NCBI RefSeq assembly: GCF_009914755.1
Contig: NC_060934.1
From: the human T2T-CHM13v2.0 reference genome, Homo sapiens
Strand: one strand, 5' to 3'
DNA length: 64,000 nucleotides
In this document: piece after piece, positions 42,598 through 49,650 of the stretch
Numbering within the stretch: the first letter of the stretch is position 1
How the letters are laid out: the number at the start of each line of letters is the position of its first letter
Program-made: the position numbers and the translations under genes
The notes under the pieces: model-generated
What the model was told of the DNA's origin: nothing
Databases searched by the model: none
Seen by the model: only the letters and a program-made list of their open reading frames with translations

Positions 42598-43108
<511 letters not shown>

Positions 43109-43591
43109 TCATAAAGTTTTTAAAAGAACATCAAGGGAATATACTTAAAAGTTTCACTAAAATAAGATAAAATTATCCCAGTTCCTTGTGGACACTGTAT
43201 TCATGTTATCCTGATGTAACAGCTTTTTCTCATGTGACATTCTAGATCATGAACGTGAGATTGATTATGTGTGGGTTGGCCATGGGACCAAAAGGGAAGT
43301 AGTTGATTCATCTGTTTTCCACAGCATTTTCTCTTTAAAAGAAAATTACAACCATGTTTTTCTTTCACCAACCATGAGATTTCCTAATTGTTCACATTAT
43401 TAATAATTGTTTTTATTCTTTAAAGTTCTTAATGTAGTCACCTATTTTGTGAACTCATCATGTAAAGCATATTTGTGAGTATTTTTCTCTTGTATTTATT
43501 TCATGTGCCCTGGTAAAAGAATGATATAACATGCTAGTTACCAATATGCTAGAGTATTACAGAGTTTTATGTGTAACCTATGTTCATCATC

Positions 43592-43736
43592 CTACTTCAG
43601 CTAATATTTTTCAGGCAGAAAAAGCAGAAAAAGCTTTTCAGTAGTATGTGGGCCGGAGTACACTGGTCCTCATGGCACAGTCCCTCATGGCTACTTCAGC
43701 TAATATTTTTCAGGCAGAAAAAGGCAGAAAAAGCTT
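43592..43736. repeat. 45/46-bp direct repeat flanking an inverted 50-bp L1 5'UTR copy
   Basis: Copies at 43592-43636 and 43691-43736. Insert 43641-43690 is the reverse complement of 45311-45360 (48/50). Confidence 0.92.
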
Positions 43737-44477
43737 GACTTCTGGGGTGGCAGCAACAACAATAGGGTTTGAATTAGTATTAAGCCATAAGTCTTAGCCT
43801 GATAATTTTTCTGGCTTTCGTAATATAAATTCCTTAATACTACTTGTAAGTTTAGCCTGTCTTCGGTCACTGGGAATAATTCTGCATCTGAGAACAGATA
43901 CTGTAAGGAACTTAAGGTCAGGATTTCATGGCCTTAGCACTGAGTAATTCTTGGCATTACTTTGTCCTAGTACATTAATTCTAGTAATTAAACTCTTATT
44001 TTAACTTCTTTGATCAAGCGCCTTCTTATATCTATCTCTAGCAATTGAATCCTGGTGTTTTCATCTATAAATGAATCTATCCCTTATTTTCTTGCCCAAA
44101 TCCTAGTCCCTCCAGCCTAAGGTTCTATTTTGAATACCAGGATTTTGCCTTTCATGGTTTCTCATGGGTAGAACTGTACAACTTGCTGGTAAGCCTCCTT
44201 GATACAAACAATAACCTAATAGCCTGATCTCCTTCCCATTGCCTTTTGTTAGACTACTTATACTGCGTGTCATACTTTGTCTACTGAATGGGACTTCTGC
44301 CATTTGTAGGCTGTGAGGTCTCTATCTGTCTTGATTATCTCTCCCTTCCTATTATTTGGAGTTCTCGTGATTGGCATCGCTGCTTCAAAGGTCTTTCTAA
44401 TCTCTGGATCTCTGCAAACTGACTCTTAATGGTGTAACCCAACGTAGTCTAACTGAGTCTGTTTTTACAGTAGCCAG

Positions 44478-44522
44478 CTAGAAATTCTGGAAATTCTAGA
44501 AATTCTGGAAATTCTGGAAATT
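44478..44522. repeat. 9-bp minisatellite (CTRGAAATT)x5
   Basis: Seen directly. Confidence 0.9.
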
Positions 44523-45078
44523 GCCTAGTTCTGGAAGTCCAACAAACCAAGCAAACTCAGTGAATACAACTCATGTTGTGTTTAGACGCAGAAACATTTA
44601 GAAGCACATTTATTTAATTCAAATTTGTATATTGGTACATAAGGGAGACAGAAAATTGTAAAAGTACATAACTAAAAGCTGTTATGCATTTCTTTTTTAT
44701 TTTTTAGTTGTTTTTGAAGAACTTACATCCAAACAGACAAGAAAAGGATAAAAGCACCATTGGTTCATGGCAAGTTATTACATTTTAAGTGATTAACTGT
44801 AAGTGCACTTCATCTCCTGCACTAGTCATGTTTTTGACTTCCCCAAATTATGGAAAGTGTGACATGCTTCATTAACATAATACTTAACATTACAAATAGG
44901 AAAAGATGGGCTTCTTTAGCAAAACAATACAGTAAGAGGGCCCTTTTCTCAATGAATGATAGGCTAACACAACAGAGATCTTTCAGTTAAAGCAGAATCT
45001 TAAGTAAGGTACATAGCTAATGTAAGGTACATTTTAAGTAAGGTACCTTAGCTGTATACATTACTTAAGAATATCACA

Positions 45079-48000
45079 GAGGTGGCTGGCAAGATGGCAG
45101 CATAGGAACAGCTCCAGTCTGCAGCTCCCAGTGAGATCAACACAGAAGGTGGGTGATTTCTGCATTTCCAACTGAGATACCCAGCTCATCTCATTGGGAC
45201 TGGTTAGACAGTGGGTGCAGCCAACAGAGGGCCAGCCAAAGCAGGGTGGGGCGTTGCCTCACCTGGGAAGCGCAAGGGGTCAGGCAACTCCCTCCCCTAG
45301 CCAAAGGAAGCCATGAGGGACTGTGCCATGAGGACCAGTGCACTCCGGCCCCCATACTACACTTTTCCCACAGTCTTCGCAACCCGCAAACCAGGAGATT
45401 CCCTCAGGTGTCTCTGCCACCAGGGCCCTCACAGTGTAAACAAAGCCACCAGGAAGTTCAAACTGGGCAGAGCCCACCGCAGCTCAGCAAAGTCGCTGTA
45501 GCCAGACTACCTCTCTAGATTCCTCCTCTCTAGGCAGGGAATCTCTGAAAGAAAGGCAGCAGCGGCCAGGCACGGTGGCTCACACCTGTAATCCCAGCAC
45601 TTTGGGAGGCCAAGGCCAGCGGATCATGAGGTCAGCAGATCGAGACCATCCTGGCTAACACAGTGAAACCCTGTCTCTACTAAAAATACAAAAAATTAGC
45701 TGGGCGTGGTGGTGGGCGCCTGTAGTCCCAGCTACTTGGGAGGCTGAGGCAGGAGAATGGTGTGACATCTGGGAGGCGGAGCTTGCAGTGAGCCGAGATG
45801 CACCACTGCACTCCAGCCTGGGTGAGAGAGCAAGACTCTGTCTCAAAAAAAAAAAAAAAAGGGCAGCAGCCCCAGTCAGGGGCTTATAGGTAAAACTCCC
45901 ATCTGCCTGGGGCAGAGCACCTGGGGGAAGGGACGGCTGTCGGCGCAGCTTTGATAGACTTAAATGTTCCTGCCTGCCAACTCTGAAGAGAGAAGTGGAT
46001 CTCCCAGCACAGCACTCGAGCTCTGCTAAGGGACAGACTGCCTCCTCAAGTGGGTCCCTGACCCCCATGCCTCCTGACTGGGAGACACCTCCCAGCAGGG
46101 GTCAACAGACATTTCATATAGGAGAGCTCCGGCTGGCATCTGGCGGATGCCCTTCTGGGAGGAAGCTTCTAGAGGAAGGAACAGGCAGCAATCTTTGCTG
46201 TTCTGCAGCCTCTGCTGGTAATACCCAGGCAAACAGGATCTGGAGTGGACCTCCAGCAAACTCGAGCAGACCTGCAGCTGCGGAGACTGAACGTTAGAAG
46301 GAAAACTAACAAACAGAAAGGAATAGCGTCAACTTCAACAAAAAGGACGTCCACACAGAAACCTCATCTGAAGGTCACCAATATCAAGGACCAAAGGTAG
46401 ATAAATCCATGAAGATGAGGAAAAACCAGCGCAAAAAGGCTGAAAGTTCCAAAAACCAGAACACCTCTTCTCCTCCAAAGGATCACAACTCCTTGCCAGC
46501 AAGGGAACAAAACTGGACAGAGCATGAGTTTGACAAATTGACAGAAGTAGGCTTCAGAAGGTGGGTAATAACAAACTCCTTTGAGCTAAAGGAGCGTGTT
46601 CTAATCCAATGCAAGGAAGCTAAGAACCTTGAAAAAAGGTTAGAGGAATTGCTAACTAGAATAACCAGTTTAGAGAAGAACAGAAATGACCTGATGGATC
46701 TGAAAAACACAGCACAAGAACTTTGTGAAGCATACACAAGTATCAATAGCCGAATTGATCAAGCAGAAGAAAAGATATCAGAGATTGAAGATCAACTTAA
46801 TGAAATAAAGCATGAAGACAAGATTAGAGAAAAAAGAACGAAAAGGAACAAACAAACCCTCCAAGAAATATGGGACTATGTGAAAAGACCAAACCTACAT
46901 TTGATTGGTGTACCTGAAAGTGACAGGGAGAATGGAACCAAGTTGGAAAACACTCTTCAGGATATTATCCATGGAGAACTTCCCCAATCTAGCAAGGCAG
47001 GCCAATATTCAAATTCAGGAAATACAGAGAACGCCACAGAGATACTCCTCGAGAAGAGCAACTCCAAGACACATAATTGTCAGATTCACCAAAGTTGAAA
47101 TGAAGGAAAAAATGTTAAGGGCAGCCAGAGAGAAAGGTTGGGTTACCCACAAAGGGAAGCCCATCAGACTAACAGCTGATCTCTCAGCAGAAACTCTACA
47201 AACCAGAAGAGAGTGGAGGCCAATATTCAACATTCTTAAAGAAAAGAATTTTCAATCCAGAATTTCATATCCAGCCAAATTAAGCTTCATAAGTGAAGGA
47301 GAAATAAAATTCTTTACAGAGAAGCAAATGCTGAGAGATTTTGTCACCACTAGGCCTGCCTTACAAAAGCTTCTGAAGGAAGCACTAAACATGGAAGGGA
47401 GCAACCGGTACCAGCCACTGCAAAAACATGCCAAATTGTAAAGACCATCGATGCTATGAAGAAACTGCATCAACTAACAGGCAAAATAACCAGCTAACAT
47501 CACAAAGACAGGATCAAATTCACACATAACAATATTAACCTTAAATGTAAATGGGCTAAATGCTCCAATTAAAAGACACAGACTGGCAAATTGGAGGCAT
47601 CACACTACCTGACTTCAAACTATACTACAAGGCTACAGTAACCAAAACAGCATGGTACTGGTACCAAAACAGATATGTAGACCAGTGGAACAGAACAGAT
47701 GCCTCAGAAATAACACCACACATCTGCAACCATCTAATCTTTGACAAACCTGACAAAAACAAGCAATGGGGAAAGGATTCCCTATTTAATAAATGGTGTT
47801 GGTAAAACTGGCTAGCCATATACAGAAAACTGAAACTGGACCCCTTCCTTACACCTTATACAAAAATATACAAAAATTAACTCAAGATGGATTAAAGACT
47901 TAAATGTAAGACCTAAAACCATGAAAACTCTAGAAAGAAACCTAGGCAATACCATTCAGGACACAGGCATGGGCAAGGACTTCATGTCTAAAACACCAAA

Positions 48001-49040: not shown

Positions 49041-49650
<610 letters not shown>

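What the first reader, a model, noticed from the sequence alone, without database searches (positions are those of the whole stretch)
43592..43736. Templated inverted insertion inside a 45-bp duplication: a template-switch scar copied from the neighbouring L1
Seen: 43592-43636 is repeated at 43691-43736 with one extra G. Between the copies are 4 filler bases (ttca) and 50 bp that are the reverse complement of 45311-45360 in the L1 5'UTR 1.7 kb downstream (48/50 identity). The return junction has 2-bp microhomology (ct). There is no poly(A) tail and the duplication is far longer than a typical L1 TSD, so ordinary TPRT is unlikely. Established: dup-inverted insert-dup with microhomology is the signature of FoSTeS/MMBIR or Pol-theta templated insertion. 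Inference: the donor is this local L1 copy, because the insert shares gaggaccag and catactac, which I recall differing from the subfamily consensus.
Basis: partly seen in the sequence, partly recalled or inferred. Interest (0 to 1): 0.8.

Follow-up and report, generated by a model that had tools for sequence, protein, structure and literature searches.

The report
Inverted L1 snippet inside 45-bp duplication
A 50-base piece of the neighbouring L1 element was copied backwards into an intron and sits between two copies of a 45-base stretch, an ordinary but unusually clean scar of error-prone DNA repair or replication.

Summary
43592-43636 recurs at 43691-43736 with one extra G. Between the copies lie TTCA and a 50-nt inverted copy of 45311-45360; the match is 52 nt (50/52) if the shared CT is counted.

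The donor claim also holds. A whole-genome scan for the 52-mer at up to 3 mismatches finds only the insert and the adjacent L1, while a control 52-mer from another copy finds 40 places. Insert and neighbour share two rare bases: C at 45335 and C at 45353, each in 1 of 53 other copies, never together. The insert keeps the family's A at 45352, where the donor now has C.

There is no poly(A) and no TTTT/A site, so ordinary L1 insertion is unlikely. The best reading is a template-switch or templated-insertion scar (MMBIR/FoSTeS or Pol-theta type) with no expected function. The sequence cannot separate the sub-mechanisms, nor a DNA from an RNA template.

New here: the donor L1 has a private ~310-bp deletion with 4-bp microhomology 66 bp from the template start. 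It may be a second scar of the same event. Age and polymorphism could not be tested, because no primate or pangenome data were available.

The parts
43592..43636 (.). Copy 1 of the duplicated target (45 nt)
   Evidence: families D3, D5; the only other genomic match is copy 2.
43637..43640 (.). 4-nt filler TTCA at one junction. It does not match the L1 sequence next to the template.
   Evidence: With its flanks, TTTTCAG (43635-43641) equals 43608-43614 inside the duplicated segment, but 17 of 256 possible fillers would do as well, so this is not significant.
43641..43690 (-). 50-nt insert, the reverse complement of L1 5'UTR 45311-45360. The match runs on through CT to 43692 (52 nt, 50/52).
   Evidence: I2; alignment; unique genome-wide; shared rare variants.
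43691..43736 (.). Copy 2 of the duplicated target (46 nt, with an extra G at 43723/43724). Its first 2 nt, CT, are the junction microhomology.
45309..45360 (+). Donor segment, about 230-281 nt into the adjacent full-length L1 5'UTR
45078..45563 (+). 5' part of the donor L1. The element's 5' end lies at about 45078-45080. The L1 resumes at 45855 after an Alu insertion.
   Evidence: colinear with other copies L035, L044, L045.
45426..45429 (+). Junction (CCCT microhomology) of a private ~310-bp deletion in the donor L1, 66 bp beyond the template start
   Evidence: 55 of 55 informative loci keep 299-328 bp here. CCCT sits at both edges in the 10 copies shown, 9 of 10 exactly at the right edge.
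45564..45854 (+). Alu inserted in the L1 5'UTR, with a 16-nt target duplication (45548-45563 / 45855-45870). It forms an inverted pair with the Alu at 42819-43132.
   Evidence: (D6, I1, I3, I4).
42819..43132 (-). Alu in the opposite orientation. Together with the Alu at 45564-45854 it brackets both acceptor and donor.
   Evidence: (I1: 63 nt, 87%), and the hub's mask list (42854-43132).

Best explanation
This is a one-off scar of error-prone DNA synthesis in the germline, with no expected function. A 3' DNA end at the acceptor site left its proper template. It copied about 50 nt from the 5'UTR of the L1 that lies 1.6 kb away on the same chromosome, in inverted orientation, and then returned 45 bp behind the point where it had left. 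That 45-bp stretch is therefore present twice, with the L1 snippet between the copies. In four-point template-switch notation the points are 1=43636, 2=45360, 3=45309/45311 and 4=43592. One junction has 2-nt microhomology (CT) and the other has 4 nt of filler. Shown: the anatomy, the identity of the donor copy, and that the copy was made after this L1 had acquired two rare bases. Inferred: the process itself. It was either a replicative template switch (FoSTeS/MMBIR) or the joining of a staggered break with a Pol-theta-type templated insertion. The sequence cannot separate these two.
For: The dup-filler-inverted insert-dup anatomy is as described. The donor is the adjacent L1. A genome-wide scan at up to 3 mismatches finds 2 places, the insert (0 mismatches) and the neighbour (2 mismatches), and the backwards-read control finds 0. 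The scanner does see this family: a 52-mer from copy L004 finds 40 places, none with C at either diagnostic site. BLAST gives the neighbour 96% and the next best 92%, with 40 of 303 candidates scored. Among 53 distinct other copies, C at 45335 occurs in 1, C at 45353 in 1, and none has both; the insert and the donor have both (also 0/28 and 1/28). At 45352 the insert keeps A (51/53 of other copies) while the donor has C (0/53). This fits copying from the donor before its latest change. The donor is intact at 45309-45360, so the event was copy, not cut. There is no poly(A), and the nick site implied for L1 would be GCTT/GA rather than TTTT/A. Published descriptions of this kind of scar match: inverted insertions near their template with junction microhomology, about 100 germline events of at least 25 bp per person (PMC8421209, passages read), and the four-point template-switch model (PMC5453318, passages read).
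Against: No empty orthologous site was seen, so the ancestral single-copy state is inferred. One junction has a 4-nt filler and no microhomology. A 45-bp duplication is not what Pol-theta joining of a simple break usually leaves; from recall, it usually leaves deletions. The 1616-nt distance exceeds the published search radii: MMBSearch looks within 100 bp, and the four-point paper says it does not attempt long-range switches. Which junction was entry and which was exit is ambiguous. A single-stranded DNA template 1.6 kb away has to be assumed. An RNA template gives the same product.
Confidence: 0.75

Rival explanations
1. The template was RNA rather than DNA. The 3' end at a break copied a local transcript that carries the L1 5'UTR in sense orientation. 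That transcript could be this L1's own RNA or the PHYHIPL pre-mRNA, which is transcribed on the + strand through this intron. A polymerase with reverse-transcriptase activity made the copy, and the break was then joined.
For: The hub's gene table places the site and the L1 in a + strand PHYHIPL intron, so a + sense RNA covering 45309-45360 exists whenever the gene is transcribed. This supplies a single-stranded template without further assumptions. The junctions have end-joining features, filler and microhomology, like those described for class 2 templated sequence insertions thought to come from RNA (PMC5110952, passages read). The shared rare variants fit equally well, because the RNA comes from this copy.
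Against: Nothing in the insert is RNA-specific: no splice junction, no poly(A), and no end at a transcript terminus (the donor is about 230-281 nt inside the element). Class 2 insertions are described as lacking target duplications (PMC5110952), whereas here there are 45 bp.
Confidence: 0.12
2. This was an L1-machinery event. ORF2p nicked the target and reverse-transcribed an internal piece of this L1's RNA (target-primed reverse transcription with internal priming and early abortion), leaving a long target-site duplication.
For: A target duplication flanks an L1-derived insert. The donor L1 is full-length at its 5' end, so it could have been transcribed.
Against: There is no poly(A) tail, and the insert contains no L1 3' end. 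The implied first nick, GCTT/GA, is a poor match to TTTT/A. The primer end plus filler cannot pair with the RNA next to the template. The insert is an internal 50 nt ending at neither end of the RNA. Retrotransposition has no reason to land 1.6 kb from its source. From recall, 45 bp is longer than the usual 7-20 bp duplication.
Confidence: 0.05
3. The structure arose from two or more unrelated events. Either a 45-bp tandem duplication was later hit exactly at its junction by an insertion, or a snippet from some other L1 was later made similar to the neighbour by gene conversion.
For: None specific. It cannot be excluded without orthologues.
Against: It needs an insertion exactly at the duplication junction. 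It also needs 2-nt overlap between the insert's L1 match and repeat copy 2. From recall, 52 bp is very short for gene conversion. No other genomic copy comes within 3 mismatches of the insert.
Confidence: 0.04
4. The structure is an assembly artefact or a chance resemblance.
For: None.
Against: Chance expectation is 0.00 in 100 shuffles. The flanks are single-copy. The copies differ by two substitutions and one indel, which does not look like a chimeric read joined to its own source.
Confidence: 0.01

Closest known systems
MMBIR-type templated insertions (MMB-TI; Osia et al. 2021, PMC8421209, passages read)
   Same: The insertion is an inverted copy of a template on the same chromosome. The donor is left intact. 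Microhomology is present at a junction. The event is carried in the germline without a larger rearrangement. 'Complex' events that copy in reverse and then forward are described there.
   Different: The template is 1616 nt away, whereas their tool looks within 100 bp. One junction has 4 nt of filler instead of microhomology. The return point lies 45 bp behind the departure point, which gives a flanking duplication.
Short-range template switch, four-point model (Loytynoja and Goldman 2017, PMC5453318, passages read)
   Same: A single switch-and-return in which the 2->3 fragment is copied as its reverse complement. The event can be written with four points.
   Different: The paper states that it does not try to explain long-range switches. 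Its events are mostly seen as local mutation clusters or replacements, not a 99-bp net insertion with a donor 1.6 kb away.
Polymerase-theta-mediated end joining with templated insertions (Kamp et al. 2020, PMC7368036, passages read; Schimmel et al. 2019, seen only as a citation)
   Same: The insert is identical to nearby sequence, there is short microhomology, and tandem duplications with inserts at the junction are reported.
   Different: The C. elegans duplications described there are 1 kb-1 Mb and the templated inserts come from the immediate vicinity. Here the duplication is 45 bp and the insert is 50 nt from 1.6 kb away. POLQ dependence cannot be tested from sequence.
Templated sequence insertion polymorphisms, classes 1 and 2 (Onozawa and Aplan 2016, PMC5110952, abstract and passages read)
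   Same: A short stretch templated from elsewhere is inserted and the donor is kept. The target duplication resembles class 1, and the filler and microhomology resemble class 2.
   Different: It fits neither class. Unlike class 1 it has no poly(A), no polyadenylation signal and no TTTT/A site. Unlike class 2 it has a 45-bp duplication. The donor is local, not distant.

Membership tests
MMBIR-type templated insertion (MMB-TI) | The insert is an inverted copy of a template on the same DNA, and the template is left intact | tested here: met
   I2: 52 nt, 96%; donor intact.
MMBIR-type templated insertion (MMB-TI) | The template lies close to the insertion (within 100 bp in the operational definition of PMC8421209) | tested here: not met
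   1616 nt lie between the arms. The template is close in genomic terms but outside that operational radius.
MMBIR-type templated insertion (MMB-TI) | Microhomology at the switch junctions | tested here: inconclusive
   There are 2 nt (CT) at one junction and a 4-nt filler with no microhomology at the other. A possible extra templated step, TTTTCAG, is not significant: 17 of 256 fillers do as well.
Pol-theta end joining with templated insertion | Dependence on POLQ | not testable with these tools
   This needs genetics.
Pol-theta end joining with templated insertion | The insert matches sequence flanking the break, and microhomology is used | tested here: inconclusive
   The insert matches sequence 1.6 kb away, not the immediate flank. 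Microhomology is present at one junction only.
L1 target-primed reverse transcription / class 1 TSIP | Target-site duplication of at least 5 bp | tested here: met
   45 bp.
L1 target-primed reverse transcription / class 1 TSIP | Poly(A) tract at the 3' end of the insert | tested here: not met
   There is no A-run at either junction.
L1 target-primed reverse transcription / class 1 TSIP | Insertion at a 5'-TTTT/A-3' site | tested here: not met
   The implied nick is GCTT/GA on the + strand.
Class 2 TSIP (break repair patch) | No target duplication, with end-joining features at the junctions | tested here: not met
   End-joining features are present, but so is a 45-bp duplication. The definition comes from PMC5110952.
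Four-point short template switch | [quoted passage not shown] | tested here: met
   Points 43636 / 45360 / 45309-45311 / 43592. The range is longer than that model was applied to.

The most novel reading that the evidence does not exclude
The inverted insertion and the donor L1's private ~310-bp microhomology deletion (CCCT, 45426-45429) are two scars of one multi-break repair event. A break inside the L1 5'UTR was resected. On its left side this exposes the L1 + strand, which is the strand the insert was copied from under the filler-at-entry polarity (priming from the end at 43636); the template starts 66 nt from the deletion junction. A 3' end from a second, staggered break 1.7 kb upstream primed on that wrong end and copied 52 nt, an aborted inversion of the 1.8-kb middle piece. 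It then let go and rejoined its proper partner through CT, while the L1 break closed through CCCT. If true, the locus records an intermediate of multi-break end joining in the germline, with the single-stranded template accounted for.
Probability: 0.25. Interest if true: 0.5.

Novelty: new member of a known kind. Interest (0 to 1): 0.32.

Why it matters
Templated inverted insertions are a known class of germline and cancer mutation. Genome-wide tools look for templates only within about 100 bp (PMC8421209) or decline long-range cases (PMC5453318). This locus is a fully resolved example with a donor 1.6 kb away. Because the donor is a repeat with private variants, it can be named with near certainty among thousands of look-alikes. 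The case shows that repeat-derived 'orphan' snippets can be local repair scars rather than retrotransposition products, which matters for repeat annotation. If the nearby microhomology deletion belongs to the same event, the locus also shows where the single-stranded template came from. No effect on PHYHIPL is expected. The site is intronic, about 980 bp upstream of an alternative exon.

Tried and rejected
1. Generic L1 origin, from any copy or from family RNA. Rejected.

2. Paralogous empty site. Both flanks are single-copy, so the genome holds no internal empty-site copy.

3. Filler templated from inside the duplicated segment. TTTTCAG at 43635-43641 equals 43608-43614, but 17 of 256 possible fillers reach a local match of at least 7 nt. 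It is kept only as a possibility.

4. Clustering of donor-private substitutions near the template or deletion. 8 of 15 fall in 45280-45429, about 5.6 being expected. This is not significant.

5. Dating. Two substitutions in 52 nt, none in 45 nt, and one indel. This would suggest millions to tens of millions of years, but error-prone synthesis could have made these changes at the event itself, so no date is claimed.

6. L1 target duplication and 3' end. No convincing match to the sequence upstream of 45080 was found downstream; the best was 9 nt. The L1's 3' limit was left unresolved.

8. Hinch et al. (PMC7615360) was read for templated insertions at meiotic breaks. The passages shown held nothing that bears on this case.

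9. No paper holds both 'PHYHIPL' and 'template switch' (0 papers in the searched library).

Full report
**What is there.**
On the + strand the sequence reads: 43592-43636 (45 nt), then TTCA (43637-43640), then 50 nt (43641-43690), then 43691-43736 (46 nt).
- The two outer blocks are direct repeats. The first 33 nt are identical. The last 18 nt differ only by one extra G in the second copy, in the GG at 43723-43724 (families D3 and D5).
- The inner 50 nt are the reverse complement of 45311-45360.
- The complementary match runs two bases further, into the CT that also starts the second repeat copy. The inverted repeat is therefore 52 nt at 50/52, with 1616 nt between the arms (I2; alignment).
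- No A-run sits at either junction.
- A 32-mer from the match, at up to 3 mismatches, occurs twice in the window against 0.00 expected in 100 shuffles.
- The left flank plus repeat (43450-43640) and the right flank (43737-43940) are each single-copy in the 3.1-Gb genome. The only other hit to the 45-mer is its own second copy, at 98%.

**What the donor is.**
- The sequence at 45078/45080 onward is the 5' end of an L1 on the + strand. It is colinear with other genomic copies over 45078-45429 and 45426-45563. An Alu interrupts it at 45564-45854, with a 16-nt target duplication (D6), and it resumes at 45855.
- The template therefore lies about 230-281 nt inside the element's 5'UTR.
- I could not name the subfamily, because no repeat library was available.

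**Is the neighbouring copy the donor?**
- BLAST of the insert against the whole genome gave the neighbour at 96% and the next best copies at 92%. Only 40 of 303 candidates were scored.
- An ungapped pattern scan of the whole genome with the 52-mer, at up to 3 mismatches, gave exactly two places: the insert itself (0 mismatches) and the neighbour (2 mismatches). The backwards-read control gave none.
- The tool warns that very common words may be skipped, so I ran a positive control. The homologous 52-mer of another copy (L004) found 40 places at up to 3 mismatches. None of them has C at the 45335 or 45353 position. The scanner therefore does see this family.
- I compared the copies column by column. 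Among 28 other copies, and then 53 distinct ones, the counts were as follows:

| Position | Insert | Donor | Other 53 copies |
|---|---|---|---|
| 45335 | C | C | A in 51, C in 1, G in 1 |
| 45353 | C | C | G in 50, A in 2, C in 1 |
| 45352 | A | C | A in 51, G in 2, C in 0 |
| 45341 | T | C | C in 47, T in 5, G in 1 |

- No other copy has C at both 45335 and 45353; the insert and the donor do.
- The simplest history is that the L1 inserted and acquired (or arrived with) the two rare bases. The 52 nt were then copied. Afterwards the donor changed at 45352 and the insert at 45341.
- Alternatively, those last two changes are errors made during low-fidelity copying.
- Either way the template was this L1 copy or an RNA made from it, not the family at large.

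**Why not ordinary retrotransposition.**
- Class 1 L1-mediated insertions are defined by a target duplication, a poly(A) tract and a TTTT/A site (PMC5110952, abstract and passages).
- Here only the duplication is present. The implied nick is GCTT/GA. The insert is an internal 50 nt that reaches neither end of an L1 RNA. The primer end plus filler cannot pair with the sequence next to the template.
- It does not fit class 2 either, because class 2 insertions lack target duplications.

**How it most likely arose.**
- The structure is a switch-and-return. Synthesis reached 43636, moved to the L1 at 45360, and copied to 45309/45311 on the opposite polarity. It then returned to 43592 and copied the 45 nt again.
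- In print this matches the inverted templated insertions attributed to MMBIR. About 100 germline events of at least 25 bp are reported per person, some copying in reverse and then forward (PMC8421209, passages). It also matches the four-point template-switch model (PMC5453318, passages).
- The same product would come from a staggered break whose overlapping ends are both kept, joined after a Pol-theta-type templated extension. Templated inserts and duplications with inserts are reported for that pathway (PMC7368036, passages).
- I cannot separate these mechanisms from sequence. I also cannot tell which junction was entry and which was exit.
- The filler with its flanks (TTTTCAG) recurs inside the duplicated segment. 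That would give a three-step path with microhomology at each step (TT, G, CT). However, 17 of 256 possible fillers would do as well.
- An RNA template is also possible. The PHYHIPL pre-mRNA, on the + strand according to the hub's gene table, and the L1's own transcript both carry the template in the right sense.

**Points against, and limits.**
- No empty site has been seen.
- One junction lacks microhomology.
- A 45-bp duplication is, from recall, atypical for Pol-theta joining of a simple break.
- The age is open. Two substitutions and one indel separate the copies, but these could be copying errors, so the event could even be polymorphic.

- All other copies align to the donor's 5'UTR in two blocks, with 299-328 extra bases between them. 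This holds for 55 of 55 loci that gave two alignments, which are 52 distinct places. Two further loci, L016 and L058, gave fewer than two alignments and are uninformative.
- The donor therefore has a private ~310-bp deletion. CCCT sits at both edges of the deleted stretch in the copies inspected (10 shown; 9 of 10 exact at the right edge). A single CCCT remains in the donor at 45426-45429.
- The junction lies 66 bp beyond the template start at 45360.
- For a background rate, I sampled 29 other copies chosen only by their first 121 nt. Of these, 25 are colinear over the first 1400 nt and 4 have a disruption of any kind.
- That is about one disruption per 10 kb, or roughly a 2% chance of one falling this close to the donor. 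The figure is post hoc, and the sample is probably biased toward well-preserved copies.
- A break at that spot, once resected, would expose exactly the L1 + strand. If synthesis primed from the 43636 end (filler at entry), that is the strand the insert was copied from; priming from the other end would need the - strand, which that break would not expose.
- I therefore give about 25% to the reading that insertion and deletion are two scars of one multi-break repair.
- An inverted Alu pair (42819-43132 and 45564-45854, I1, 63 nt at 87%) brackets both sites. It could have favoured breakage or juxtaposition, but its timing is unknown.

**Verdict.**
- It is a new, well-resolved member of a known kind of mutation, and no function is expected.
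- Interest is modest. It rises somewhat if the neighbouring deletion proves to belong to the same event.
- No paper in the searched library holds both 'PHYHIPL' and 'template switch'.

Noticed in passing
window 45426-45429: The donor L1 has a private ~310-bp deletion in its 5'UTR with 4-bp microhomology (CCCT), 66 bp from the template start. All 55 informative loci (52 places) keep the 299-328 bp.
   Followed up: partly
window 42819-43132 and 45564-45854: An inverted Alu pair (63-nt core, 87% complementary, about 2.4 kb apart) brackets both the acceptor and the donor. The right-hand Alu sits inside the L1 5'UTR and has a 16-nt target duplication (45548-45563 / 45855-45870).
   Followed up: partly
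window 43615-43636 and 43714-43736: The 3' end of the duplicated segment is itself a short tandem repeat. AGGCAGAAAA occurs twice, perfectly, in copy 2, and one G is missing in copy 1. The G indel between the two copies lies in this repeat.
   Followed up: no
window 44478-44522: A 9-nt tandem array (CTAGAAATT / CTGGAAATT, 5 units) lies about 200 bp upstream of the PHYHIPL alternative exon at 44716-44798.
   Followed up: no
window 44997-45070: Directly upstream of the L1 5' end there are three direct copies of a 16-mer (ATCTTAAGTAAGGTAC-like). There is also a 27-nt inverted repeat, 85% complementary, with a 19-nt spacer.
   Followed up: no
L070:1497-1618 and L070:1622-2892: Another genomic L1 copy of this family has its first ~127 nt inverted relative to the rest of the element. 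This is a 5' inversion of the kind usually ascribed to twin priming (from recall).
   Followed up: no
window 49560-49648: An antisense Alu-like stretch is followed by a 30-nt A-run at 49619-49648, at the end of the masked L1 block. The L1's 3' limit and its own target duplication were not resolved.
   Followed up: partly
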